The position numbers and the translations under genes were made by a program. Shown in pieces: positions 5,064 through 16,710 of a DNA stretch of 64,000 bases. Where the stretch lies: NCBI GenBank assembly GCA_016125285.1, contig WGMA01000016.1:1-64000 (forward strand). Reading direction: 5' to 3'. The stretch's first letter is position 1, and each line of letters opens with the position of its first letter. Origin of the DNA: Phycisphaera sp. Lineage in GTDB: Bacteria; Planctomycetota; Phycisphaerae; Phycisphaerales; Zrk34. Under the pieces are notes generated by a model that saw nothing but the letters and a program-made list of their open reading frames with translations, had not been told where the DNA came from and did no database searches.

Positions 5064-6137
5064 TTACGCCACGAGTTCTTCGGGGCGGTACTGCTCGAAC
5101 ATCTTCTTGTCCTGGGCCTTCATGTACGCGGCTTCGCCGGAGATGGTGCCGGCCTTGATGAGTTTCATCAGGCCCTGGTCCATCGTCTGCATGCCGTCAC
5201 GCGAGCCCATTTCGATCATCGACACGATCTTGGAGATGGCGCCGTCGCGGATCATCTGCGACATGCCTTCCTTGCGGACGAGGATCTCCTGGCAGGCGAC
5301 GCGGCCCTTGCCGTCGGCCTTGCGGAGCAGCTGCTGCGAGAAGATCGCGCGGACCGACTCGCTGAGCATCGTCCGGATCATGGGCTGCCGGCCGGAGGGG
5401 AACACGTCGATGATGCGGTCGATGGTCTTCGCGGCGGAGTTGGTGTGCAGCGTGCCGAACACGAGCAGGCCGAGCTCCGCGGCGGTCAGCGCGAGCGAGA
5501 TGGTCTCGAGGTCGCGCATCTCGCCGACGAGGATGACGTCGGGGTCTTCGCGGACGGCGGCGCGGAGGGCCTCGGCGAAGCCGTCGGTGTGCTGGCCGAC
5601 CTCGCGCTGCGTGATGACGGACTGCTGGTTCTCGTGCACGAATTCGATCGGGTCTTCGATGGTCACCACGTGCTTGGAGTATTCCTTGTTGACCTTGTCG
5701 ATGATGGCGGCGAGGGTCGTGGACTTGCCCGAGCCGGTCGGCCCGGTGACGAGGCAGAGGCCGGAGCGGTAGTGCGCGGCGTCGGCGATGGCGTCGGGCA
5801 GGCCGAGGTCCTGGCAGGTGAGGATCTTGTCGGGGATCTGACGGAAGACGGCGCCGTAGCCATGGACCTGCTTGAGGTAGTTGCAGCGGAAACGGGCGAC
5901 GCCCTCGAGGCCGTACGCGAAGTCGAGGTCGCCGGTCTTCTCGTACCGTTCCCAGAGGACCGGCTCGCAGATCTCGACGAGGTACGTGCGCAGCATGTCG
6001 CGCGTGAGGATGGGGTGTCCCTCGATGGGGTGCAGCTCGCCGTGCACGCGGACCTTGGCCGGCTGGCTCTGCAGCAGGTGCAGATCGCTGGCGCCGTTGG
6101 CTTTGACGTATCGGAACAGTTCGTCGATCTTGGCCAT
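5064..6137 (-). CDS. pilT: Type IV pilus retraction ATPase PilT
   Basis: 357 aa with Walker A 'GPTGSGKSTT'. It has the 'DPIEF' Asp box, 'ILVGEMRDLETI' Walker B and 'GTLHTNSAAKTIDRI' His box. The size and absence of an N-terminal domain fit PilT. Confidence 0.9.
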   Translation of the reverse strand: MAKIDELFRYVKANGASDLHLLQSQPAKVRVHGELHPIEGHPILTRDMLRTYLVEICEPVLWERYEKTGDLDFAYGLEGVARFRCNYLKQVHGYGAVFRQIPDKILTCQDLGLPDAIADAAHYRSGLCLVTGPTGSGKSTTLAAIIDKVNKEYSKHVVTIEDPIEFVHENQQSVITQREVGQHTDGFAEALRAAVREDPDVILVGEMRDLETISLALTAAELGLLVFGTLHTNSAAKTIDRIIDVFPSGRQPMIRTMLSESVRAIFSQQLLRKADGKGRVACQEILVRKEGMSQMIRDGAISKIVSMIEMGSRDGMQTMDQGLMKLIKAGTISGEAAYMKAQDKKMFEQYRPEELVA

Positions 6138-6176
6138 AGTGTTTGCCTCTCGGGTCTAAGCGAGCGGTCGGGTGCC

Positions 6177-7829
6177 TTACTTGAATCGTCTGGGGTCCTC
6201 GGCGACCTTGATCGCCTCTTCCTTGTTGATCGTACCGCTCTGGACCAGCTCGTCGAGCGATTCGTCCATCAGCTTCTGGCCGACCTTGCGTCCGGTCTGC
6301 ATGACCGAAGGCAGCTGATAGGTCTTGGAGTCGCGGATCAGGTTGGCCACGGCGGTGGTGACGTAGAGGGTCTCGAGCGAGGCGACACGGCCGGAGCGGT
6401 CGTTCTTGCGCACGAGCTGCTGCGTGATGATGCCGCGGAGCGACCCGGCGAGCATCGTGCGGACCTGGGCCTGCTGGTCGGCGGGGAACACGTCGACGAT
6501 GCGGTCGATGGTGCGCGCCGCGGACTTGGTGTGCAGCGTGCCGATGACGAGGTGGCCCGTTTCGGCGGCGGTCATCGCGAGGCTGATGGTCTCCAGGTCG
6601 CGCATCTCGCCGATCATGATCACGTCGGGGTCCTCACGCAGCGCGGCCTTGAGCGCGGCGGAGAACGACTCGGTGTGCGGGTGCACCTGACGCTGCGTGA
6701 CGTTGCAGCTTTTCGACGGGTGCAGGTATTCGATGGGGTCCTCGACGGTGATGACGTGGTCCATGCGGTTTTCGTTGACGCAGTTGACCAGCGCCGCGGC
6801 GGTGGTGGACTTGCCACAGCCCGCGGGACCGGTCACGAGCACCAGCCCCTGCGACCACTCGGTCAGCGCCTCGAGGCTGTCGGGCATGCCGAGCTGCTGG
6901 AGGGTCGGGACCACGGACGGGATGATGCGGAGGATGATCGACGGGCCGCGGAACTGCATCAGCGCGTTGGCGCGGAATCGGCTGAGGTGGGGGTGTTCCC
7001 ACGACAGGTCGAGGTCGCGGTGCTCGGTGAAGATCTCGCGCTGCTCGTCGTCGAGGAAGCCCATGACCATGCGTTCGGCCATCTCGAAGGTGATGGGCGG
7101 TTCGTCGAAGAAGTGCAGCTCGCCGTGCAGCCGACAGAACGGTCGCGACCCGGCGGTGAGGTGCAGGTCGCTGGCGCCCATCCGGCAGGCCGTGTAGAGG
7201 AAACGCCACGCGTCGTCGTCGAGCCGGGGATCGTCGTCGGGCTTGGGCGGGACGTCGATCTTCGCGCCCGGCGCGGCGGGCTGCGCGCCCGGTCGGGGCG
7301 GCGCCGGCCGGTTCGGCGGCGGCGGTGGCGACGCGGCGGGGGGCGCGGCTTCCTCGAAGGAGAACTGCTTTTCCTCGACGGGCTCGGGCGGCGCCGGGGG
7401 GCGCGCCGCCTCGGCGGGATCGGTCGCGGGCACGACGTCGCCGAACAGCGCCGCGACGCGCTGGCCCACCTTCGCGACGACCGCGTCGTCGAGGAAGCCC
7501 TTGCGCTTGAGGATCCTGCGGATCGGCATGCGCCCGCCGGACTTCTCGAACTCCGAGAAGCACTCCTTCCACTGCTCGGGGGTGAGCAGCTTGTTGAGCG
7601 TCAGCAGGTTCTTCCACACGCGTGTCTCGACGATGACGCGCATGAGCGGGATCTTCTTCGGCGGGACCAGCCCGCTGGTCATCAGCATCGTCTGGAAGGG
7701 GATGCGGCCCTGCTGTTCCTTGAACTTGCCGACGACCTCGGCCCACTGCTCCTCGGTCATCAGGTTGTTCTGCATCACGACCTGATACCAGATCTGCAGG
7801 ACGATCTCGGTGCCTTGGGAGTCGCTCAC
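6177..7829 (-). CDS. PilT-family ATPase with N-terminal duplicated GspE_N/MshEN-like domains and a Pro-rich linker
   Basis: The C-terminal 350 aa are PilT-like: 'GPAGCGKSTT', 'IMIGEMRDLETI', 'GTLHTKSAARTIDRI'. The N-terminus carries two ~40-aa repeats, 'LMTEEQWAEVVGKFKEQQGRIPFQTMLMTSGLV' and 'LTPEQWKECFSEFEKSGGRMPIRRILKRKGFL', resembling T2SSE_N/MshEN helical units. Confidence 0.85.
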   Translation of the reverse strand: MSDSQGTEIVLQIWYQVVMQNNLMTEEQWAEVVGKFKEQQGRIPFQTMLMTSGLVPPKKIPLMRVIVETRVWKNLLTLNKLLTPEQWKECFSEFEKSGGRMPIRRILKRKGFLDDAVVAKVGQRVAALFGDVVPATDPAEAARPPAPPEPVEEKQFSFEEAAPPAASPPPPPNRPAPPRPGAQPAAPGAKIDVPPKPDDDPRLDDDAWRFLYTACRMGASDLHLTAGSRPFCRLHGELHFFDEPPITFEMAERMVMGFLDDEQREIFTEHRDLDLSWEHPHLSRFRANALMQFRGPSIILRIIPSVVPTLQQLGMPDSLEALTEWSQGLVLVTGPAGCGKSTTAAALVNCVNENRMDHVITVEDPIEYLHPSKSCNVTQRQVHPHTESFSAALKAALREDPDVIMIGEMRDLETISLAMTAAETGHLVIGTLHTKSAARTIDRIVDVFPADQQAQVRTMLAGSLRGIITQQLVRKNDRSGRVASLETLYVTTAVANLIRDSKTYQLPSVMQTGRKVGQKLMDESLDELVQSGTINKEEAIKVAEDPRRFK

Positions 7830-7954
7830 GACGGCGCCCTCCCGTCGCGACGACGCTCACGCCGAGCCGCGACCGGACCGGTCGGGGGTGTCCGCCGGCG
7901 ACCGTGACTCAAACGCATGGGTGTCGGGTCGTCCATCGTGGGTGCGCGTCCGTG

Positions 7955-10120
7955 TCAGAACAGCTTGTTGGGGTTCTCCGCGGCCTTCATCGCGTCGTCC
8001 TTCGTGATCACCCCGGACTGCGCCAGCTCCTTGAGCGAATCGTCCATCAGCTTCTGGCCCTGCTTGCGTCCGGTCTGCATGACCGACGGCAGCTGGAACG
8101 TCTTGGAGTCGCGCACGAGGTTGGACACGGCGGTGTTGACGTAGAGCACCTCGAGCGCCGCGACGCGGCCGGAGCCGTCGGCCCTGCGGACGAGCTGCTG
8201 GGTGATGATGCCGCGCAACGCCTCGGAGAGCATCGTGCGGACCTGCGCCTGCTGGTCGGACGGGAACACGTCGACGATGCGGTCGATCGTGCGCGAGGCG
8301 GACTTGGTGTGCAGCGTGCCGATGACGAGGTGGCCCGTTTCGGCGGCGGTCATCGCGAGCGAGATGGTCTCGAGGTCGCGCATCTCGCCGATCATGATCA
8401 CGTCGGGGTCTTCACGCAGCGCGGCCTTGAGCGCCGCGGCGAAGGTCTTGGTGTGGATCGGCACCTGCCGCTGCGTGACGTTGCAGTTCTTGGACGGGTG
8501 GATGTACTCCACCGGGTCCTCGACGGTGATGATGTGGTCTTTGCGGTTGGAGTTGACCAGGTCGACCAGCGCCGCGGCGGTGGTCGACTTGCCGCAGCCG
8601 GCGGGCCCGGTCACGAGCACCAGGCCCTGCGTCCACTCGGTCAGGCGGCCGAGGCTGGCGGGCATGCCGAGGTCGTCGAGCGTGGGGATGGTCTTGGGGA
8701 TGATGCGGAAGATGATCGACGGGCCGCGGAACTGCATCAGCGCGTTGACGCGGCATCGGCCGAGTTCGTCGCCGCCGTCGAACGAGAAGTCGAGGTCGCG
8801 GTGGCGCAGGAACTGCTGCTGCTGTTCGTCGTCCATGAAGCCGAGCACCATGCGGCGGGCGCGGTCGGGCGTCAGCTGCGGGGCGTCGAAGAAGTTCAGC
8901 TCGCCGTTGTGGCGCATGAAGGGGCGCGACCCGGCGGTGAGGTGAAGGTCGCTGGCGCCGGCCTCCACCGCGGCCTGGAGAAACTGCCGCGCCTCGGGGT
9001 CCAGGTCGTTCGGCGCTACCTCGCACTCGACACGCGGCTTATCGTCGGCCGCCTCCGGCACGCCCACCTTTGACGCCAGCGGCGCGATCGGCTTGGGCGC
9101 CACGAGCTTCGGCCCCTCGGGCTTCGGACGCGCGTCCGGCGAGATCGACGCCGAGCTGTCGAAGACGATGATCTTCTCGGTCGGCTCGCTGTCGTCGAGG
9201 TCGATGGCGTCGAGGTCTTCCTCCTCGCGTTCGATCGACAGCAGGTTCTCCTCCGCTTCACCGACCATCCGCGTGTTGGCGTCCTCGGTGGTCTGCGAGG
9301 TCCACTCCATCTCGCCGACGCGCTTGCGTCGCGCGGCGCCTTCGGCTTCCTCTTCGTCGGTCAGGTCGATGTCGTAGTCGTCGCCGTCCTCGTCCTGCAG
9401 CTCGACGACATCGGCGTCTTCCTCGAGGGCGTCCATGCTGATCGCGCTGCCGCCGGGCGCGGACGGCGCGGCGGTGGGCGGCGGCGGTGGGGGGGCCTTG
9501 GGCTTCGGCGGTGGCGGCGGTGCGGGATCGTCCTCAAGGGCGTCCATGCTGATGGCGCTGCCGCCGGGCTTGGGGGGCGCGGTCGGCGGGGGAGGCGGCG
9601 CGGCGGCCTTCCGGGGCGGAGGCGGCGCGCTGGCCTGCGGCGCGGGCGCGGCGTTGTCCGGCCACTTGCCGAGGATCAGGCGGAGCCGAGCCTTGATGTT
9701 GTTCGCCATGTCCTCCCGGACGTAGCCCTTGTCGATCAGGATCTTGTCGATCGGCACGCCGGCGTTCTGCTTCTGCAGCTGTTCACACTCGGCCCACTGA
9801 TCCTTGCTGATGACCTTGCTCTGCAGCAGCATCATCTTCAGGACCTCGACCTTCGCCGCGGAGCGCAGCTGGACGATGGTCTTTTCATCGGCCAGGCCGT
9901 TGTTGTGCAGGATCGTCTCGATCTGGATCTTCGCCCCGGCGTCGTTGTACGCCTTGTGGATCGCGTCCCAGACCGGTCGTTCGAGAATCTTGTATTTCAG
10001 CAGGACGTGCTGCCAGACCTGTGCGCGCGTCGCGGCAAGGGCGGCCTGTTCACGTTTCAAGCTTTCAGGAGAGGGACTCAAATCCGCTTCCTTTGAATCA
10101 CCACCGGCCCGAGCGTTCAC
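7955..10120 (-). CDS. PilT-family ATPase paralog with extended N-terminal GspE_N/MshEN-like repeats and a duplicated Pro-rich acidic linker
   Basis: 721 aa. The C-terminus is near-identical in motifs to the previous gene. The N-terminus contains 'VISKDQWAECEQLQKQNAGVPIDKILIDKGYV'. The linker has duplicated 'PPPP..GGSAISMDALE(D/E)D' segments. Confidence 0.85.
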   Translation of the reverse strand: MNARAGGDSKEADLSPSPESLKREQAALAATRAQVWQHVLLKYKILERPVWDAIHKAYNDAGAKIQIETILHNNGLADEKTIVQLRSAAKVEVLKMMLLQSKVISKDQWAECEQLQKQNAGVPIDKILIDKGYVREDMANNIKARLRLILGKWPDNAAPAPQASAPPPPRKAAAPPPPPTAPPKPGGSAISMDALEDDPAPPPPPKPKAPPPPPPTAAPSAPGGSAISMDALEEDADVVELQDEDGDDYDIDLTDEEEAEGAARRKRVGEMEWTSQTTEDANTRMVGEAEENLLSIEREEEDLDAIDLDDSEPTEKIIVFDSSASISPDARPKPEGPKLVAPKPIAPLASKVGVPEAADDKPRVECEVAPNDLDPEARQFLQAAVEAGASDLHLTAGSRPFMRHNGELNFFDAPQLTPDRARRMVLGFMDDEQQQQFLRHRDLDFSFDGGDELGRCRVNALMQFRGPSIIFRIIPKTIPTLDDLGMPASLGRLTEWTQGLVLVTGPAGCGKSTTAAALVDLVNSNRKDHIITVEDPVEYIHPSKNCNVTQRQVPIHTKTFAAALKAALREDPDVIMIGEMRDLETISLAMTAAETGHLVIGTLHTKSASRTIDRIVDVFPSDQQAQVRTMLSEALRGIITQQLVRRADGSGRVAALEVLYVNTAVSNLVRDSKTFQLPSVMQTGRKQGQKLMDDSLKELAQSGVITKDDAMKAAENPNKLF
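9416..9645. repeat. ~115-nt in-frame tandem duplication inside the pilT-like gene linker
   Basis: The unit tcctcgagggcgtccatgctgatcgcgctgccgccggg... is followed by tcctcaagggcgtccatgctgatggcgctgccgccggg..., read directly from the DNA. Confidence 0.8.
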
Positions 10121-10253
10121 CGCGGAAATGGCGCGTACGCAGTAACTTCCGCAGTATAGACACGCCCACGAATTGCGCCAAGGTGACCCGGCGGCCGCGA
10201 CGCCCCGTCGTAGACCGCCGGCCTCCCCGGTTTATGTCGAGCCTGCCGCAGCT

Positions 10254-11045
10254 TCAGAGCGGATCGCTCTCGTCGCCGCTGGAGGCCTCCTCGCCGCCGA
10301 GCTCTTCCTCGTGTGTCGAGCCGCCGTCCTCCTCGTCGTCGAGTTCCTCCTCGATGATCGAGTCCTTCTCGGTTTCGGTCGTGACGGCGGTGAACTCCAG
10401 CAGGCGGTTGATGCGGCGGCGGACCAGGAACAGCAGGGGCACGTGCGGGATGCGACGCAGCTCCTGCCGGCCGGTGGCGCTGTAGACGATCAGCGTGCCC
10501 GCGCCGCACATCAGGAACTCCAGCAGGTCGGGGTACGTCGTGCGGACGCGCTTGGCGCCGCGGGCGAGCGAGTCGTCGGCCCGGCCGAACGCGTAGTGTT
10601 CAAACTCGTTGTGCGAGATCCGCCAGCGGTGGTTGATCCGCACCCACACCATCATGATCGCGAACGGGATCGCCAGCAGGATGCTCAGCGCCATGCCGAA
10701 CCCCCTGTCGTAGTGGGCGTTCAGGCCGTCGAAGAAGTCATACATCGCCTTGAAGACCATGATGTCGTACGCGTCGCTCAGCCAGCGTCCGGCGAAGAAC
10801 AGCAGGCCCGCGATCACGACCCACACGAACGCGTAGTTGCGCTCGACGTCGACGCTGATGGTCATGATGACCGCCAGCATGATGAGCAGGTAGGTCCACC
10901 CGATGAGCGGGATCTGCGGCAGGAAGTACAGCAGCGGCCCGGCGACGATCAGCGGCCACGTGAACAACAGTTTCGGGTAGGTGTAGAACGTGACCGCTTC
11001 GCGGTCCTTGCGGGGTTTGTGTCCTGCCATCGGATCGCTCCTCAT
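10254..11045 (-). CDS. Hypothetical polytopic membrane protein with acidic C-terminal tail
   Basis: Four to five hydrophobic helices are followed by an 'EEELDDEEDGG...EEELGGEEASSGDESD' tail. An alternative start at M6 would be 11030. Confidence 0.55.
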   Translation of the reverse strand: MRSDPMAGHKPRKDREAVTFYTYPKLLFTWPLIVAGPLLYFLPQIPLIGWTYLLIMLAVIMTISVDVERNYAFVWVVIAGLLFFAGRWLSDAYDIMVFKAMYDFFDGLNAHYDRGFGMALSILLAIPFAIMMVWVRINHRWRISHNEFEHYAFGRADDSLARGAKRVRTTYPDLLEFLMCGAGTLIVYSATGRQELRRIPHVPLLFLVRRRINRLLEFTAVTTETEKDSIIEEELDDEEDGGSTHEEELGGEEASSGDESDPL

Positions 11046-11220: not shown

Positions 11221-14200
11221 TCAGCCCGACCCGTCCGGCGGACGCCGACGCTCCACCAGCTGACGCAGCTGCGGGATCAGCCGCCTGAGCAGGTCCAGCA
11301 GGTGTTCGATCGACTCGGGGTGCTCGACGACGGCGTGTTCGTCGGCCTCGATGCTGCGGCTCACCGCCTCGGCCTCCTTCGACCCGAAGATGCCCAGCGA
11401 CCCCGCCAGCCGATGCACGAGGCGGTGAACCGACTCGGTGTCGCCGTCTTGCACCGCCCGGCGCAGGTCGTCCGAAACCGCTTCGCTCTCCTTCGCAAAC
11501 AGCTCGACGATCTCGGTCAGCAGCCCGTGGTCGTCACCGGTGCGGTCGAGCACCTCGTTGAGGTCGTAGAGCACGGCGCCGTCACCGTCGCCGTCACGGT
11601 CGTCTCGCCCCGTGCCGCTGGTCGACCTGTCCCGGTCGCCCCGAGTGGTGTTCGTCGGATCGTCGGGTTCGCTCGTCACGCTGCGCGCCAGGGCGTCGCG
11701 CAGCGTGTCGCGCCGGATCGGCTTGGACAGGTAGTCGTCCATGCCCGCGTCGATGCACCGCTCGCGGTCTCCGGCCATGGCGTGTGCGGTCATCGCGATG
11801 ATCGGGACGTGCTCGCCGGTCTGACGCTCGGCGACGCGGATGCGACGCGTGGCCTCGAGGCCGTCCATCTCCGGCATCTGCACGTCCATCAGCACCACGT
11901 CGTAGCGCGTCGCGCCGCGCAGCGCCGCCAGCGCCTGTCGGCCGTTGCCCGCGACCGACACGCGATGGCCCTCGCGCTCCAGCAGGTGCGTCGCGACGAC
12001 CTGGTTGGTCACGCCGTCTTCCACGAGCAGGATGTTGAGCGAGCGCACCGCCGCGTCGCGCCCGGTCTCGTGTGACGTGGGGGCCTGGAGCTCCAGCGTT
12101 TCGGCGATCGCGTCAAACAGCTCGGACTGTTTGACGGGCTTGATGAGGTACCGACGGATGCCGACCTGCGCGAGGCTCGCGGTGTCGGCGAAGCGATGTG
12201 CGGAGGACAGCATGATCAGCCGCGTGCCGCGCAGGTTCGGCGTGTCCTTGATCCGGCGCGCCAGATCGAAGCCGTCCATGCCGGGCATCATCGCGTCGAG
12301 CAGCGCCAGCGGGTAGGGATCACCGGCCTCGGCGGCGCGGGTCAGCTCGGCCAGCGCCGCCGCACCATCGGCGACGACGGTTGGCGCCATGCCCCAGTTC
12401 TCCACCAACTGCTTGAGGATGCGGCGGTTGGTTACGCTGTCGTCGGCCAGCAGCAGCCGCACGCCGTCGAGCGACTCGTGCCGGTGGGCGGGTTGTTTGT
12501 CGGCGATCTCGAACGACGCGCTGAAGTGAAACGTGCTTCCCACGCCGACCGTGCTGACCACGCCGAGCTGCCCGCCCATCATCTCCACGAGCCGCCGCGA
12601 GATCGTCAACCCGAGTCCCGTGCCGCCGTAACGCCGCGTGGTCGACGAATCCGCCTGGGCGAACTCGTCGAAGATCCGCCCCAGGTGCTCGGGCGCGATG
12701 CCGATGCCCGTGTCGCGTACGGTGAACTTGAACGTCGCGTGATGGTCGTCGCGCGACTCGTTCGCCACGGTGACGACGATCTCGCCGCGCTCGGTGAACT
12801 TGATCGCGTTGCCGACGAGGTTGACCACGACCTGCGCCAGCCGCGGCGCGTCGCCGATCAGCACGTCGGGCACGTCCGGCGGGATGTCGTACGCCAGCTC
12901 CAGCTTCTTCTCCGACGCACGCGACCCGAGCATCTGCAGCGTGTTGCCCAGCAGGTCGCGCAGGCCGAACGGCTCGGCGTGCAGCTCGAACCGACCGGCC
13001 TCGATCTTCGACAGGTCCAGGATGTCGTTGATCAGGTCGAGCAGCGACATCGCCGAACGCTCGAGCATGTTCAGGTATTCCTTCTGAGCCTTGTCCAGGT
13101 CGCTGTCGCTCAGCAGCTGCGCCATGCCGATGATGCCGTTGATCGGCGTGCGGATCTCGTGGGACATGTTCGCCAGAAAATCGCTCTTGGCGCGGTTGGC
13201 CTGCTCCGCGGTGGTCTTGGCGATCTGGAGCTCCTGCGAGGCTCGCTCCATCGCCTCCTGCGCCTGCTTCATCGCGGTGATGTCGATCGAGTACATGATC
13301 ACGCCGCCGATCTCGCCGTCGGCGTCGCGCCACGGGCGCACCTCCCACATCAGCCACTGCACCGTGCCGTCGGGGCGCTCGAAGCGGTCCTCGTCGCAAG
13401 TCTCGGTCGCCCCCGCCAGGCAACGCTGGTGGATCTCCTTCCACCGGGCCGGCACCTCGGGGAACACGTCGTAGTGGCAACGCCCCTCCAGCGACCGCAG
13501 CGGCAGGCCGTAGTCCACCAGCCACTGCTCGGAGTGGCAGATGTAACACATGTCCCGGTCGAACATCGCCACGCCGACCGGCGCTTCCTTGACGAACTGC
13601 TCGAGCGTGTCGGCGGTCGCCCGAAGCTCCTGCTCGGCCTGGACGCGCTTGGTGATGTCCGTCGCGATCCCCGCCACCGCGTAGATCTTCCCCTCGTCGT
13701 CGCGCAGCGGGAACTTCAGCGACAGGTAATTCCGGAGCCCGTCGTCGTGCGGCATCGTCAGCTCGGACTGGATCGTCTGCCCGTTCGCCGCGACCTGCTG
13801 GTCCACCAGGAACGCCTCGGCCAGCTCCGCGCGGAACAGGTCCCGCGCCCGGCGGCCGTGCACCTGGACGTTGGTCAGCCCGAACACACGCTCGAACTGC
13901 CTGTTTACGAGCGTGAAGCCGTGGTCGAGGCTCTTGATGTAGACCACCGCCGGCATGAAGTCGATGATCGCCTTGAGCTGCTGCTCGCTGCGGGTGCGGT
14001 CGGCCAGCGCCTGCTTCTGCGCCGTGATGTCCATGATCACGCCGTCCAGCCAGCCGACCTCGCCCGTCAGGTCGTCGTGGATCGCCTGTCCCGACTCGCC
14101 GACCCAGCGGATCGAGCCGTCGGCGTGGACGATGCGGTACTCCATCGAGTAGGGCTCGTCGCGGTCGACGTGCTCGCGCACGATGCGGTCGACGCGGTCG

Positions 14201-15471
14201 GTGTCGTCGGGGTGGATGACGCTCTCGAAGGATCGCACGCGGTTCGACACGAAGTCGGACGCGGGGTAGCCGGTGATCTGCTCGATGCGGTCGCTGAGGT
14301 AACGCATCGTCCATTCTTCATCGAGGTCGCAGCGGTAGACCGCGCCGGGAATGTTGTCGACGAGCGTGCGGTACTGCCGCTCGGATCCGGTCAACGCCTC
14401 CTGCGCGACGCGGCGTTCGGCGGCTTCGCGTGTCGCCTCCGCGGCCTTCTGCTCGGCCTCGGTGCGCGCGGCGACGACCGCGGACTGCTGGCGGTGGAGG
14501 AACCCCGCGACGATCAGGCCGCCGATCGCCACGACCAGCCCCGCGACGATCACCTCGATCAGCGCCTCCCGCAGCGGCGCGTACGCCAGCGCCTCGGGCT
14601 GCTGGGCGACCACCGTCCACCGCTGCCGCGCGTAGGTCACGGGCATGAAGCTCGCCAGCACCGGCTCGTCGAGCCGCGGGTCGACGTAAGTGAGCGTGGC
14701 GCTCTTGCCGAGCGACGCCTGGATCTTCGGTTGCGTCGCGTACACGTCGTTCAGCAGCCGCGGGTCGCTCTCGTCGGGCGCGATCGCCGAGTGCCCGATC
14801 ACCAGGCCGCGCCGATCCAGCAGGATCACCTGCACGCCCTCGGCGATCGGCAGGTCAGACAGACGACGCGTGAACGTGTCGAGCCGGTACTGGTAGCACA
14901 GCACGCCGTGCACGCCCTCGTCGTCACGCACCGGCGTGGCGACGGTCACGACATAGGGCTGCGGCGCGGCGCGGCGCTGGTACGGCTCGGAGACGTACTG
15001 CGACCACTTCTCCGACACGCCGCGGAACCAGTCGCGATCGGAAAAGTCGACGTTGAGCGATTCGGGCGCCGCGGGGTAGTCGCACCACAGCACGCCCTTC
15101 TCGTCGGTCACGAACGCGCGGTCGACGTCGTCGTATGACTCGACGAGCGTCTGGAGCTTCGTGCGCAGCCCCGCGGCGTCGTGGCGGCTGACCATGTCAA
15201 TGAACTCGTCGGAGCCGGTGTAGATCGCCGCGTGCTGGCTGAGGTAGGACAGGTCGTTGGCGACGTACTGGCTCGTGAGCCGCGCCGCCGCCTCGCTCGC
15301 CGCCAGCGCCTGCGCGCGGATCGTGTGACTGACGATGACATACGCCGACCCGCACAACAGGAACACCGGCGCCATCAGCAGAACGACAAACACATAAAAC
15401 CACCGACGCGGACGGTTGTTGTCGCGTGTCTCGGCATCTCCACCACGTGCATTACCCTGCGTCTCTGACAA
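11221..15471 (-). CDS. Hybrid sensor histidine kinase/response regulator (periplasmic Cache-like sensor, multiple PAS, HisKA, HATPase_c, two REC, Hpt)
   Basis: 1416 aa. The H-box is '[17 protein letters not shown]' and the G2 box is '[19 protein letters not shown]'. The two receivers are '[12 protein letters not shown]...[13 protein letters not shown]' and '[11 protein letters not shown]...[14 protein letters not shown]'. The Hpt motif '[11 protein letters not shown]' is present. The N-terminal TM-sensor-TM region is followed by several PAS-like blocks. Confidence 0.9.
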
Positions 15472-15675
15472 TCGCCATACCCCCAGGCGAGTACTCCCCC
15501 ATGGTCGACCGGATCACAGTTGTGTCCGACGGACCCCGATACGAATAGACCTGCTCCCATTCAGGATATAGACGCGCGTCGTCGCAGACAATCGTGGGGA
15601 ATGTCCTTTTGAATTTATTAAGGCGTCAATATGCACAGCAATCTCCTGCAATCGCGCAGCCGTGACCCGCGGCCC

Positions 15676-16710
15676 TCAGCCGTGAATCGCTTCGCCGCCG
15701 ACGTCAGCCAGCTCGTTGTATATCTCCGCGAACACGTCCTGGGCGTCGTTGAACGCCTCAACGATGTCGGGGTCAAAGTGCTTGCCCGACTCGGTATTGA
15801 TGATCTGGCACGCCCGGGCGTGATCGACCTCATCCTTGTACACACGCTTGGAGCGGATCACGTCGTACGCGTCGGCGAGGGCCACGATCCGAGCCGCCAG
15901 AGGAATGCCGGTCTTACGGTCGCGTCCGGCGCGTCCCTCCGGGTAGCCCGTGCCGTCGAACTTTTCATGATGCGACAACACCAGGTCCCGCGCCATCGAC
16001 AGGAACGACGCGGCGGGAAACCGTTTGATCGTCGTATCCAGCACCCGCGCCCCGCGCACGGTGTGCTTGGTCATGATCGCAAACTCCTCGGGTGTCAGCT
16101 GCCCGGGCTTGAACAGCACGCGGTCCGGCACCGTCACTTTGCCGATGTCGTAGAGCGGACAGACCTGCATCAGGATCAACCGGAACTCCGCCGTCACCTC
16201 GTTGATGTATCGCGGGTGCGTCGCCAACTCCTCGGCCAGCGTCATGCAGTACCGCCGCACGCGCTCGAGGTGGTTCGAGCCAGGCCAGTCACGCGCCCCG
16301 GCCAGCTTCGCCAGCGCGAACACCATCGCGTCCCACGACTCGGCCCGCGCGATCCGACGACCGGCGTTGAGCCGCAGCCGCAACTCGTCGTCGTTGAACG
16401 GCTTGATGATGTAATCGTCCGCCCCGGACTCCAGGCCAACCCGCACGTGGTCCGGATCGCGGTGACCCGTCAGCAGCACGATGTAGGTGTACGTGTGACT
16501 CTCCCGCGCGCGCACCGCCCGGCACAAGTCCACGCCGCTGACGCCCGGCATCTCCCAGTCCGCGAGGATCACGCGGAACGGGCGCGTGCGCAGAACCTCC
16601 AGCGCCTGGGCCCCGTGCTGCGCGACGGTGACCTTCCAGCCCCACTGCAGCAGCCTGGCCCGCAGCAGCGCGCGCGTCGTCGTGTCGTCATCAACGACCA
16701 GAATCTCCAC
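15676..16710 (-). CDS. Response regulator with HD-GYP domain (c-di-GMP phosphodiesterase, RpfG-like)
   Basis: The REC domain reads 'ILVVDDD...ILADWEMPGVSGVDL' with 'DDYIIKPF'. The HD-GYP domain shows 'HHEKFDGTGYP'. It lies immediately upstream of, and co-oriented with, the hybrid kinase. Confidence 0.9.
   Translation of the reverse strand: MEILVVDDDTTTRALLRARLLQWGWKVTVAQHGAQALEVLRTRPFRVILADWEMPGVSGVDLCRAVRARESHTYTYIVLLTGHRDPDHVRVGLESGADDYIIKPFNDDELRLRLNAGRRIARAESWDAMVFALAKLAGARDWPGSNHLERVRRYCMTLAEELATHPRYINEVTAEFRLILMQVCPLYDIGKVTVPDRVLFKPGQLTPEEFAIMTKHTVRGARVLDTTIKRFPAASFLSMARDLVLSHHEKFDGTGYPEGRAGRDRKTGIPLAARIVALADAYDVIRSKRVYKDEVDHARACQIINTESGKHFDPDIVEAFNDAQDVFAEIYNELADVGGEAIHG

What the first reader, a model, noticed from the sequence alone, without database searches (positions are those of the whole stretch)
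5064..10120. Three tandem PilT-family ATPases; two carry duplicated GspE_N/MshEN-like N-terminal domains that may be c-di-GMP or partner-binding modules
A canonical PilT (357 aa) is followed on the same strand by two PilT-core paralogs (550 and 721 aa). Their N-termini contain two or more ~40-aa helical repeats with the pattern h-[ST]-x-[ED]-Q-W-x-E...G-[RV]-[IM]-P-x-x-x-[IM]-L-x-x-x-G-[FLY]-[VL], followed by Pro-rich acidic linkers. This pattern resembles the T2SSE_N/MshEN units that bind c-di-GMP in MshE and PilB. Retraction-type ATPases normally lack such domains. An HD-GYP phosphodiesterase response regulator and a giant hybrid kinase lie immediately downstream at 11221-16710. Several pilin-like proteins with LamG/DUF1559 domains are present elsewhere in the window.
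Basis: partly seen in the sequence, partly recalled or inferred. Interest (0 to 1): 0.6.

Follow-up and report, generated by a model that had tools for sequence, protein, structure and literature searches.

The report
PilT motors with degenerate MshEN bundles
Two of three adjacent pilus-retraction motor genes carry a duplicated N-terminal four-helix domain that is related to a known c-di-GMP sensor but lacks the residues needed to bind it, so it more likely serves as a docking or tethering module than as a signal receptor.

Summary
Three PilT-family ATPase genes lie in tandem on the minus strand, transcribed 721 aa (T3), then 550 aa (T2), then 357 aa (T1).

T3 and T2 each start with two ~53-residue helical units, followed by a Pro-rich acidic linker and a complete PilT core. 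The public annotation of the source MAG (Phycisphaera sp.) clips both extensions.

The units are genuine MshEN_N-type four-helix bundles:
- Profile searches hit PilF, PilB and MshE (E from 8e-15 to 3e-6).
- hhalign to canonical units gives 96.5% probability.

They lack the MshEN_C subdomain, and Pfam PF05157 does not detect them.

The c-di-GMP reading fails its own test. All eight motif copies lack the essential Gly (G11/G40 of MshE), and none reaches the curated NCBIfam cutoff.

They belong to an apparently undescribed "long PilT" clade that is always followed by a short PilT. Myxococcota members keep canonical LLG…RLG motifs, while Phycisphaerae members are Trp-substituted and degenerate.

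The most likely role is a tethered protein-docking module on a retraction motor. The neighbouring "HD-GYP" regulator has a YD dyad instead of HD, and this neighbourhood is not conserved.

The parts
7955..10120 (-). T3: long PilT-clade ATPase (721 aa as listed, probably ~701-708 aa from an internal TTG start)
   Evidence: ORF. TIGR01420 435 bits. GC3 is 0.50 in codons 1-30 and 0.90-0.97 thereafter. NCBI calls only the last 349 aa (P0007).
9860..10018 (-). T3 unit A (aa 35-87): degenerate MshEN_N four-helix bundle
   Evidence: Family HMM 48 bits. Coordinates verified by translation. AF2 pLDDT 88-96, helical. G11 to Q, G40 to E, Trp at the L10 and L25 positions.
9689..9844 (-). T3 unit B (aa 93-144): degenerate MshEN_N four-helix bundle
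   Evidence: Family HMM 49 bits. It is the only window unit that hits NF053729, at 24 bits against a cutoff of 38. G11 to K, G40 to D.
8996..9664 (-). T3 linker (aa 153-375): Pro-rich then acidic, predicted disordered, with conserved short motifs (two copies of GG[ST]AI[SA]MD..E[DE]D, KRVGEMEWT, DLDAIDLD[DE]SEPTEKIIV)
   Evidence: Composition and net charge of -32. pLDDT 38-64 in the full-length model. Motifs are conserved in the L014 orthologue.
7955..8995 (-). T3 PilT core (aa 376-721)
   Evidence: TIGR01420 match over 378-718. Walker A GPAGCGKST, Asp box, Walker B, His box and AVSNLVRD all present. pLDDT above 90.
6177..7829 (-). T2: long PilT-clade ATPase (550 aa), a lineage-specific paralogue of T3
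   Evidence: ORF. TIGR01420 429 bits. Core is 75% identical to T3. NCBI calls only the last 334 aa (P0002).
7635..7793 (-). T2 unit A (aa 13-65): degenerate MshEN_N four-helix bundle
   Evidence: Family HMM 60 bits. AF2 pLDDT ~90. G11 to Y, G40 to Q, Trp at L10 and L25. No NF053729 hit.
7461..7619 (-). T2 unit B (aa 71-123): degenerate MshEN_N four-helix bundle, joined to unit A by one continuous helix (aa 59-78)
   Evidence: Family HMM 64 bits. hhalign to canonical units gives 96.5% probability. AF2 helices. G11 to K, G40 to R.
7215..7439 (-). T2 linker (aa 131-205): 32% Pro, acidic
   Evidence: Only 32% identical to the orthologue, omega 0.85.
6177..7214 (-). T2 PilT core (aa 206-550)
   Evidence: 346 bits to P. 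aeruginosa PilT 3JVU. Motifs.
5064..6137 (-). T1: short PilT (357 aa), the conserved downstream partner of the long clade
   Evidence: TIGR01420 433 bits. 331 bits to PaPilT. Walker A GPTGSGKST, but the AIRNLIRE region reads GMSQMIRD. A short PilT follows the long one in every locus examined that extends past its end.
10153..10181 (-). Sigma-70-like promoter match upstream of T3. No terminator-like site on the minus strand between T3, T2 and T1.
   Evidence: This is a consensus match only and is weak evidence.

Best explanation
T3 and T2 are catalytically intact PilT-type (retraction-type) hexameric ATPases. They belong to an ancient 'long PilT' clade marked by a Cys-containing Walker A and a retained AIRNLIRE-like motif. 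They are probably co-transcribed with T1, the short PilT partner that this clade always has downstream.

Each long protein carries a rigid rod of two MshEN_N-type four-helix bundles at its N-terminus. The rod is connected to the motor by a 75-220-residue Pro-rich, acidic, disordered tether. In T3 the tether contains conserved short linear motifs.

The bundle descends from a c-di-GMP-binding MshEN_N unit. Canonical LLG...RLG versions persist on the same clade in Myxococcota. In this Phycisphaerae lineage the unit was tandemly duplicated and lost the nucleotide-contacting glycines and glutamines.

Shown: gene order, architecture, homology, fold, loss of the binding residues, conservation, and the conserved long-short gene pair.

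Inferred: the bundles no longer bind c-di-GMP. Instead they act as a tethered protein-docking module, as the degenerate ND0/N-terminal domains of X. citri PilB (which binds PilZ) and XpsE do. The module would recruit, localise or gate the retraction motor at the pilus base, or couple it to a partner such as T1.
For: PilT identity: TIGR01420 at 429-435 bits. PaPilT scores 331-346 bits against 224-244 for PilU. All catalytic boxes are intact.

Bundle homology: the family profile hits PilF at 7.9e-15, Geobacter PilB at 4e-12 and MshE at 7.7e-6. A profile built only from double modules hits PilF at 3.4e-6 and PilB at 1.4e-5. hhalign to canonical units gives 96.5% probability, E=7.8e-10.

Loss of the binding site: Gly at motif position 3 is absent in 8 of 8 motifs. 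NF053729 scores are 0, 0, 0 and 24 bits against a cutoff of 38, while canonical relatives score 47-54 bits. G11I, G11L and G40I abolish binding, and XpsE lost binding through such changes (PMC5013675). PilF GSPII-A, with one degenerate motif, does not bind (PMC11731258).

Precedent for protein docking: X. citri PilB ND0 lacks the motifs, and the N-terminal domain it belongs to binds PilZ (PMC8389850).

Functional constraint: units are 61-76% identical to orthologues against 32% for the T2 linker, and T3 units have omega 0.28-0.35 against 0.24 for the core.

Disordered tether: pLDDT 38-64.

Conserved long-short pair in two phyla. The triple array is repeated in L014.
Against: No binding partner has been identified, and the window has no other pilus-machine genes.

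The hydrophobic positions that stack on guanine are kept, and two of them (the L10 and L25 equivalents) are Trp, an excellent base-stacking residue. A modified ligand site is therefore not excluded.

Position 1 of the motif tolerates Pro, Leu or Lys in proven binders (PMC11731258, PMC5013675), so those changes do not disqualify the site.

T2 units show relaxed constraint (omega 0.57-0.77), which is compatible with partial decay.

The linker motifs do not dock onto the core in the monomer model, so their role is unknown.

Loss of binding is predicted from sequence and has not been measured.
Confidence: 0.6

Rival explanations
1. One reading: the duplicated N-terminal units are c-di-GMP receptors of the MshE/PilB kind, so c-di-GMP directly gates these retraction motors. 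The neighbouring HD-GYP regulator would set the local signal.
For: The units are true MshEN_N homologues with the right fold. Canonical, cutoff-passing versions sit on the same PilT clade in Myxococcota. Most hydrophobic core and stacking positions are retained, as is the helix-turn Gly47. A REC-HD-GYP gene and a hybrid kinase lie upstream on the same strand.
Against: Both essential glycines are replaced in all four units by Y/K/Q/K and Q/R/E/D. Substitutions at these positions abolish binding in MshE (PMC5013675). Q32 is lost. No unit reaches the curated NF053729 cutoff. In the models, the motif-I start of unit B lies inside a long continuous helix. The HD-GYP protein has YD instead of HD and is not a conserved neighbour.
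Confidence: 0.1
2. The Trp-type bundle is a neofunctionalised ligand sensor. Trp residues at the two guanine-stacking leucine positions would create a new pocket for a different nucleotide or an aromatic small molecule.
For: Trp at the L10 position and Trp at the L25 position co-occur in 27 of 83 units, and 22 of those lack G40. That looks like a coordinated remodelling of the site rather than random decay. T3 units are under purifying selection.
Against: There is no precedent. The two Trp could equally form a protein-protein interface or simply fill the former pocket. The backbone-amide donors of the Gly-x dipeptide are likely occluded by side chains or by helix extension.
Confidence: 0.1
3. 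The bundles are evolutionary relics with no current function beyond acting as a spacer. They would be decaying after the loss of c-di-GMP control.
For: T2 units have omega 0.57-0.77 and the T2 linker 0.85. A further 'FK-type' class in Phycisphaerae is even more degenerate.
Against: T3 units have omega 0.28-0.35, close to the core's 0.24. The unit was duplicated and both copies kept in two organisms. AF2 predicts a well-packed fold with pLDDT around 90. The Trp, Leu and Gly signature is conserved.
Confidence: 0.12
4. The extensions are not translated. The public annotation (334 aa and 349 aa) is correct, and the long ORFs are open-frame artefacts of a high-GC genome.
For: PGAP chose internal starts (P0002 and P0007). 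High-GC genomes do carry many spurious long ORFs.
Against: GC3 is 0.90-0.97 across units and linkers in this frame. Orthologues conserve the extension at 61-76% identity. 78 of 83 extended relatives share the unit. The fold is confidently predicted and matches MshE.
Confidence: 0.02

Closest known systems
MshEN / GSPII domains of extension ATPases (V. cholerae MshE, 5HTL; T. thermophilus PilF GSPII-A/B/C; Geobacter and Chloracidobacterium PilB)
   Different: Here the module is attached to a PilT-type (retraction) core rather than a PilB/GspE-type core. Only the MshEN_N subdomain is present, with no MshEN_C alpha/beta half. It is separated from the motor by a long disordered linker. The c-di-GMP-contact Gly and Gln residues are absent, and PF05157 does not detect it.
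Degenerate MshEN-like N-domains that bind proteins: X. citri PilB ND0-ND1 (7LKM, binds PilZ) and X. campestris XpsE-N (2D28)
   Different: Those domains are on extension or secretion ATPases and retain the ND1/MshEN_C subdomain. No partner is known for the window proteins. The Trp signature and the tandem rod are specific to this lineage.
PilT-PilU two-motor retraction systems (Pseudomonas, Vibrio, Acinetobacter, M. xanthus MXAN_1995)
   Same: Two PilT-family motors are encoded side by side and are presumably used together. One partner keeps the AIRNLIRE-type motif and the other does not.
   Different: Neither partner is PilU-like: PilU 9N32 scores 224-244 bits against 331-346 for PilT. There is no PilU-type C-terminal extension, which is the element that contacts PilT (bioRxiv 10.1101/2025.10.30.685630). 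Here the distinguishing appendage is N-terminal.
M. xanthus MXAN_6705/MXAN_6706 PilT paralogue pair
   Same: This is an adjacent pair conserved across Myxococcales. MXAN_6705 has a longer N-terminus, described as intrinsically disordered (PMC13584747). That matches the long-short pair found in nine Myxococcota/Deltaproteobacteria MAG loci, whose long member has a canonical MshEN_N unit.
   Different: Identity with the MAG pair is inferred only, because the MXAN_6705 sequence could not be fetched here. MXAN_6705 is not in the published list of 17 M. xanthus MshEN proteins. The Myxococcota proteins have one canonical unit, whereas the window proteins have two degenerate ones.

Membership tests
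PilT/PilU family type IVa pilus ATPase (TIGR01420) | Full-length match above the curated cutoff (319 bits) | tested here: met
   T1 433.5, T2 429.1 and T3 435.4 bits.
PilT/PilU family type IVa pilus ATPase (TIGR01420) | Walker A, Asp box, Walker B (catalytic Glu) and His box | tested here: met
   All are present in T1, T2 and T3. T2 and T3 have the clade-specific GPAGCGKST.
PilT (as opposed to PilU) | Closer to PilT than to PilU, and an AIRNLIRE-type motif in the C-terminal domain | tested here: met
   PaPilT scores 331-346 bits against 224-244 for PilU. T2 has AVANLIRD and T3 has AVSNLVRD. T1 deviates with GMSQMIRD, so the motif criterion is met by T2 and T3 only.
PilT | Pilus retraction activity | not testable with these tools
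   Needs genetics or biochemistry.
MshEN / T2SSE_N domain (Pfam PF05157, ~145 aa, N and C subdomains) | Match to the PF05157 model | tested here: not met
   No hit at E<=10 for the N-termini or single units. None of the 66 family units hit it.
MshEN / T2SSE_N domain (Pfam PF05157, ~145 aa, N and C subdomains) | MshEN_N four-helix bundle (two 24-residue helix-turn-helix motifs plus a spacer) | tested here: met
MshEN / T2SSE_N domain (Pfam PF05157, ~145 aa, N and C subdomains) | MshEN_C alpha/beta subdomain following the bundle | tested here: not met
   The models show only helices, followed by a disordered linker, with no beta-sheet before the PilT core.
c-di-GMP-binding MshEN_N motif (NCBIfam NF053729; Wang et al. 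2016) | Score at or above the curated cutoff (38 bits) | tested here: not met
   T2a, T2b and T3a give no hit, and T3b scores 24 bits. Canonical relatives score 47-54 bits.
c-di-GMP-binding MshEN_N motif (NCBIfam NF053729; Wang et al. 2016) | Gly at position 3 of both motifs (G11 and G40), which provides the backbone-amide contact to guanine | tested here: not met
   G11 is replaced by Y/K/Q/K and G40 by Q/R/E/D. G11I, G11L and G40I abolish binding (PMC5013675).
c-di-GMP-binding MshEN_N motif (NCBIfam NF053729; Wang et al. 2016) | Position 1 is R/K/L (relaxed: R/K/P/N) | tested here: inconclusive
   Motif I has I/V/V/gap and motif II has P/P/Q/P. Pro and hydrophobic residues are tolerated in proven binders (PMC11731258, PMC5013675).
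c-di-GMP-binding MshEN_N motif (NCBIfam NF053729; Wang et al. 2016) | Two triangular Leu clusters that stack on the guanines (L10/L54/L58 and L25/L29/L39) | tested here: inconclusive
   The L39 and L54 equivalents are hydrophobic in all four units (L54 is Ala in T3b). The L29 equivalent is hydrophobic only in the two T2 units (His in T3a, gap in T3b). L10 becomes W/W/W/L and L25 becomes W in all four units.
c-di-GMP-binding MshEN_N motif (NCBIfam NF053729; Wang et al. 2016) | Gln at position 24 (Q32 and Q61) | tested here: not met
   The Q32 equivalent is F/F/Y/L. A hand reading of T3 unit B puts a Gln one register away, so that unit is uncertain. The Q61 equivalent reads V/V/A/L by hand mapping onto the alignment, with an uncertain register at the C-terminal end.
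c-di-GMP-binding MshEN_N motif (NCBIfam NF053729; Wang et al. 2016) | Measured c-di-GMP binding | not testable with these tools
   Needs ITC, DRaCALA or DSF.
PilT-PilU two-motor system | A PilU-type partner with a C-terminal extension that contacts PilT | tested here: not met
   No paralogue is PilU-like. All three end at the normal PilT C-terminus.

The most novel reading that the evidence does not exclude
The Trp-substituted MshEN_N bundles are not dead sensors but re-tooled ones. Trp at the two former guanine-stacking leucine positions (the L10 and L25 equivalents), co-varying with loss of G40, would create a new ligand pocket for another cyclic or linear nucleotide or an aromatic metabolite. 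T3 and T2 would then still be small-molecule-gated retraction motors. More broadly, the whole 'long PilT' clade would be a previously unrecognised route by which second messengers act directly on pilus retraction rather than extension. That clade has canonical c-di-GMP motifs in Myxococcota and probably includes M. xanthus MXAN_6705.
Probability: 0.12. Interest if true: 0.75.

Novelty: new variant of a known kind. Interest (0 to 1): 0.5.

Why it matters
c-di-GMP control of type IV pili has been assigned to the extension ATPases (MshE, PilB, PilF) or to adaptor proteins (PilZ, FimX). Characterised retraction ATPases are bare ~350-aa motors.

This locus shows that a conserved clade of PilT-type motors, found in two phyla, carries the MshEN_N sensor bundle on a long flexible tether and always travels with a second, short PilT.

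In Myxococcota the bundle looks binding-competent. That suggests second-messenger input directly on retraction, and it gives a testable role for the unexplained MXAN_6705/6706-type paralogues.

In Phycisphaerae the same bundle has been duplicated and stripped of its nucleotide contacts. This is a natural example of a sensor domain converted into something else, most likely a docking module.

There is also a practical point. Automated annotation clips these extensions (334 aa called instead of 550, and 349 instead of ~700), and Pfam does not detect the unit. The architecture is therefore largely invisible in databases.

Tried and rejected
- Word-indexed homologue searches with the two N-terminal modules alone found nothing. 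Relatives were only reached through the PilT core.
- Pfam scans of the N-termini and of 66 family units never hit PF05157. The recurrent FumaraseC_C and DUF4388 hits are weak helical look-alikes.
- phmmer of the T3 N-terminus against PDB gave only a chance amidase hit.
- Looking up the source contig through the clipped NCBI protein P0002 failed.
- A GTDB species-genome scan with the T2 module found no relative.
Only the tight canonical alignment worked.
- The exhaustive search of 1.84 billion representatives with the double module gave just 115 hits. These were mostly unrelated multi-unit MshEN_N repeat proteins without a PilT core, so it added little about orthologues.
- I considered that T1 might be a PilU, or that the ~730-aa hits might be relatives of T3. 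T1 is PilT-like. The ~730-aa proteins are PilT-PilT tandem fusions from other phyla.
- I considered that the conserved T3 linker motifs might dock onto the core. The monomer model gives them low confidence, so this is neither supported nor excluded for the hexamer.
- The dN/dS values come from one pairwise comparison in a strongly GC3-biased genome and are only indicative.

Full report
OBSERVATION. The window holds three consecutive ORFs on the minus strand: 7955-10120 (721 aa, here T3), 6177-7829 (550 aa, T2) and 5064-6137 (357 aa, T1). All three pass the curated PilT/PilU model TIGR01420 (435, 429 and 433 bits against a cutoff of 319), whereas PilB, GspE, DotB and the other models stay far below their cutoffs. 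Against solved structures both T1 and the T2 core match P. aeruginosa PilT best (331 and 346 bits) and PilU clearly worse (224 and 244 bits). Walker A, Asp box, Walker B and His box are intact in all three. The intergenic gaps are 125 and 39 bp. The only promoter-like match lies just upstream of T3, and no terminator-like site lies between the genes on that strand. That is weak evidence for one operon.

ARE THE EXTENSIONS REAL? The closest database entries are the same two genes from a Phycisphaera sp. MAG, but annotated as 334 aa and 349 aa. They start at Met217 of T2 and at residue 373 of T3. Several results show that the longer ORFs are the real genes. Third-position GC is 0.97 and 0.91 in the T2 units and linker, and 0.91 and 0.90 in T3, the same as in the cores (0.93-0.97). 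Orthologues cover 97-99% of T2. A JGI metagenome contig (L014) carries the same three-gene array, with a T3 orthologue (69% identity over 685 aa), a T2 orthologue (P0001, 72%) and the start of a T1 orthologue (79% over 47 aa). Against those orthologues the units are 61-76% identical, compared with 32% for the T2 linker. Omega for the T3 units (0.28-0.35) is close to that of the core (0.24). T2 units are more relaxed (0.57-0.77). This is one pairwise comparison with biased dS, so it is only indicative. Only the first 30 codons of T3 look non-coding (GC3 0.50), so its start is probably an internal TTG that still lies upstream of the first unit.

ANATOMY. The two N-terminal modules are homologous to each other (24% identity over 119 aa, E=4e-17). 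Each is an internal duplication. For T2, unit A against unit B gives E=3e-7. T3's two units are too diverged for BLASTP, but both score 48-49 bits on the family HMM. AlphaFold2 models the T2 module with pLDDT 88 and pTM 0.78 as seven helices. These form two four-helix units that share one long continuous helix (residues 59-78), giving a rigid rod. Full-length T3 gives the same N-terminal layout (pLDDT 88-96), then a segment from residues 156 to 360 that is predicted disordered (pLDDT 38-64), and then a confident PilT core. The linkers are 32% Pro in T2 and carry a net charge of -32 in T3. The T3 linker also contains motifs conserved in the L014 orthologue: two copies of GG[ST]AI[SA]MD..E[DE]D, KRVGEMEWT, and DLDAIDLD[DE]SEPTEKIIV. 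These do not dock onto the core in the monomer model.

DO THEY BIND c-di-GMP? The published determinants are as follows. Position 1 (R9/R38) stacks on guanine and may be R, K or L. The backbone amides of Leu at position 2 and Gly at position 3 contact the ligand. Two Leu triads stack on the bases. Gln at position 24 also takes part. G11I, G11L and G40I abolish binding, and XpsE lost binding through G11V, G40L and similar changes (PMC5013675, PMC11731258). The alignment of the family profile to the real MshE sequence fixes the register, and hhalign confirms it. In that register the four window units have Y/K/Q/K at G11 and Q/R/E/D at G40. They have F/F/Y/L at Q32 and P/P/Q/P at R38. Trp occupies the L10 position in three units and the L25 position in all four. 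The structural turn Gly47 is retained. All eight motif copies therefore lack the essential glycine. The curated model gives a clean gradient: canonical relatives score 54 and 47 bits, single Trp-type units 19-22, unit B of P0005 and P0006 22-23, the window units 0, 0, 0 and 24, and the FK-type class 0. Across the 83 units, 36 keep Gly in both motifs, 21 keep it only in motif I, and 22 (including all window units) keep it in neither. Two caveats remain. Binding was not measured. Also, Trp at the L10 and L25 positions co-occurs in 27 units, 22 of which lack G40. That looks like coordinated remodelling, so a different ligand or a new interface cannot be excluded.

THE WIDER FAMILY. The long proteins form a distinct PilT clade. 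Every member examined has the Walker A sequence GP[AS]GCGKS[ST] and an AIRNLIRE-like A[VI][SA]N[LA][IV]R[DE] motif. In every locus that extends past the long gene's end, the gene immediately downstream is a short PilT with GPTGSGKST and a divergent G[ML][SA]xxIR[ED]G. This long-short pair is present next to double-unit relatives (L001, L002), next to a Trp-type single-unit relative (L015), and next to canonical relatives (L003, L005-L009, L011-L013; L004 and L010 end too soon to show the downstream gene). The named Trp-type and FK-type members are Phycisphaerae/Planctomycetota. The nine genome loci found with the canonical motif are Myxococcota/Deltaproteobacteria-type MAGs, with one labelled Spirochaetales. 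The double module itself is rare. It has no relative in 185,579 GTDB species genomes. It gives only 115 hits at E<=1e-3 among 1.84 billion representatives, and most of those are other multi-unit MshEN_N proteins without a PilT core. In the literature I could search, MshEN domains are described on extension and secretion ATPases, glycosyltransferases and other proteins, but not on PilT (PMC5013675 does not mention PilT). A 2026 study notes that M. xanthus MXAN_6705/6706 are adjacent PilT paralogues conserved across Myxococcales, and that MXAN_6705 has a longer N-terminus 'predicted to be intrinsically disordered' (PMC13584747). MXAN_6705 is not among the 17 catalogued M. xanthus MshEN proteins. 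This is probably the same pair, but I could not fetch that sequence to verify it.

CONTEXT. Upstream on the same strand lie a 263-aa membrane ORF without family hits, a dCache-PAS-HisKA-HATPase-REC-REC-Hpt hybrid kinase and a REC-HD-GYP protein. The last of these aligns to PA4781 and PmGH with Tyr in place of the His of the catalytic HD dyad (LYDIGKV against LHDIGKV and MHDIGKV), although the HHExxDGxGYP motif is intact. Its phosphodiesterase activity is therefore doubtful. None of these genes accompanies the long PilT in the related loci where flanking DNA was available. The only other contig with the same three-gene array, L014, is too short to show its upstream genes. The rest of the window encodes sulfatases, planctomycete PSD/PSCyt proteins, three N_methyl pilin-like proteins of the kind abundant in this phylum, and no PilB, PilC, PilM/N/O/Q or GGDEF protein. 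The neighbourhood therefore adds little to the c-di-GMP argument.

MECHANISM. The following are shown: two intact PilT-type motors, each carrying a rigid tandem MshEN_N rod on a long disordered acidic or Pro-rich tether; a probable operon with the clade's obligatory short PilT partner; and loss of the nucleotide-contact residues while the fold stays conserved and, in T3, under purifying selection. The following is inferred, at about 0.6 overall. The rod no longer senses c-di-GMP and instead acts as a tethered docking module. Six copies per hexamer could capture a partner at the pilus base or a regulator, or couple the long and short motors. This would resemble the degenerate ND0/N-terminal domains of X. 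citri PilB (which binds PilZ) and XpsE (PMC8389850, PMC5013675). The conserved T3 linker motifs are candidates for further contacts in trans. The rivals are c-di-GMP binding after all (0.10), a re-tooled ligand pocket using the Trp pair (0.10), a decaying relic (0.12) and untranslated ORF extensions (0.02).

VERDICT. The arrangement is a new variant of known parts, an MshEN_N bundle attached to a PilT core. The by-product may be the more interesting result: a two-phylum 'long PilT plus short PilT' module whose Myxococcota members look competent to bind c-di-GMP. Interest is 0.5.

Noticed in passing
window 15676-16710 (-): The REC-HD-GYP response regulator has Tyr instead of His in the catalytic HD dyad (LYDIGKV against LHDIGKV in PA4781 and MHDIGKV in PmGH). 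HHExxDGxGYP is intact. It may be an inactive or re-purposed HD-GYP protein rather than a phosphodiesterase.
   Followed up: partly
window 6177-7829 and 7955-10120 (-): The public (NCBI) annotation of the source Phycisphaera sp. MAG starts T2 at Met217 (334 aa, P0002) and T3 at residue 373 (349 aa, P0007). About 0.65 kb and 1.1 kb of coding sequence are left unannotated. A Phycisphaeraceae relative is likewise deposited both as 566 aa and as 345 aa.
   Followed up: yes
window 10031-10120 (-): The first 30 codons of the T3 ORF have GC3 of 0.50, against about 0.9 elsewhere. The true start is probably TTG at codon 14 or 21.
   Followed up: partly
window 8996-9664 (-); L014 1-2010: The 223-aa T3 'linker' holds short motifs conserved in the orthologue: two copies of GG[ST]AI[SA]MD..E[DE]D, KRVGEMEWT, and DLDAIDLD[DE]SEPTEKIIV. 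EM[ED]W and IDLxD...IIV also occur in P0006. They are predicted disordered and do not dock in the monomer model. Their function is unknown.
   Followed up: partly
window 5064-10120; L001-L015: Long and short PilT partners are two distinct clades with diagnostic signatures in both phyla. The long clade has Walker A GP[AS]GCGKS[ST] (with Cys) and an AIRNLIRE-like motif. The short clade has GPTGSGKST and G[ML][SA]xxIR[ED]G. The short 'canonical' T1 is therefore the one that lacks the AIRNLIRE-type motif.
   Followed up: yes
L003, L005-L013: Myxococcota/Deltaproteobacteria MAGs encode long PilT proteins with a single N-terminal MshEN_N unit. The unit has near-canonical c-di-GMP motifs (LLGRIAVH...RLGEILVEKG) and passes the NF053729 cutoff at 47-54 bits. 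These are candidate c-di-GMP-responsive retraction ATPases and probably correspond to M. xanthus MXAN_6705, whose N-terminus has been described only as disordered.
   Followed up: partly
L015 10001-11866: The long PilT of this Trp-type relative has GTLQT instead of GTLHT in the His box. PilC and a PilB with a Pfam MshEN domain lie about 9 kb away on the opposite strand.
   Followed up: no
window 10254-11045 (-): A 263-aa ORF sits between the hybrid kinase and T3. It has strong coding signal (GC3 0.94) and no Pfam family. By eye, the sequence has several hydrophobic, probably membrane-spanning segments and an acidic C-terminal tail. A promoter-like site lies upstream of it.
   Followed up: no
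P0122-P0234 (representative library hits): Many proteins consist of 2 to about 9 tandem MshEN_N-like units, without any T2SSE ATPase core in all but three of the hits. Some are over 1,000 aa long. Tandem arrays of this bundle are a widespread architecture in their own right.
   Followed up: no
P0004, P0008, P0011, P0014 and other ~730-aa hits: About 25 of the best T2 homologues are PilT-PilT tandem fusions, with two full cores in one polypeptide. They come from Lentisphaeria, Kiritimatiellaeota, Arenimonas and others, and are unrelated to the T3 architecture despite their similar length.
   Followed up: partly
P0104: One planctomycete PilT relative carries an N-terminal FHA domain (PF00498/PF16697) instead of the MshEN_N unit. 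The N-terminus of this clade therefore appears to be a swappable regulatory slot.
   Followed up: no
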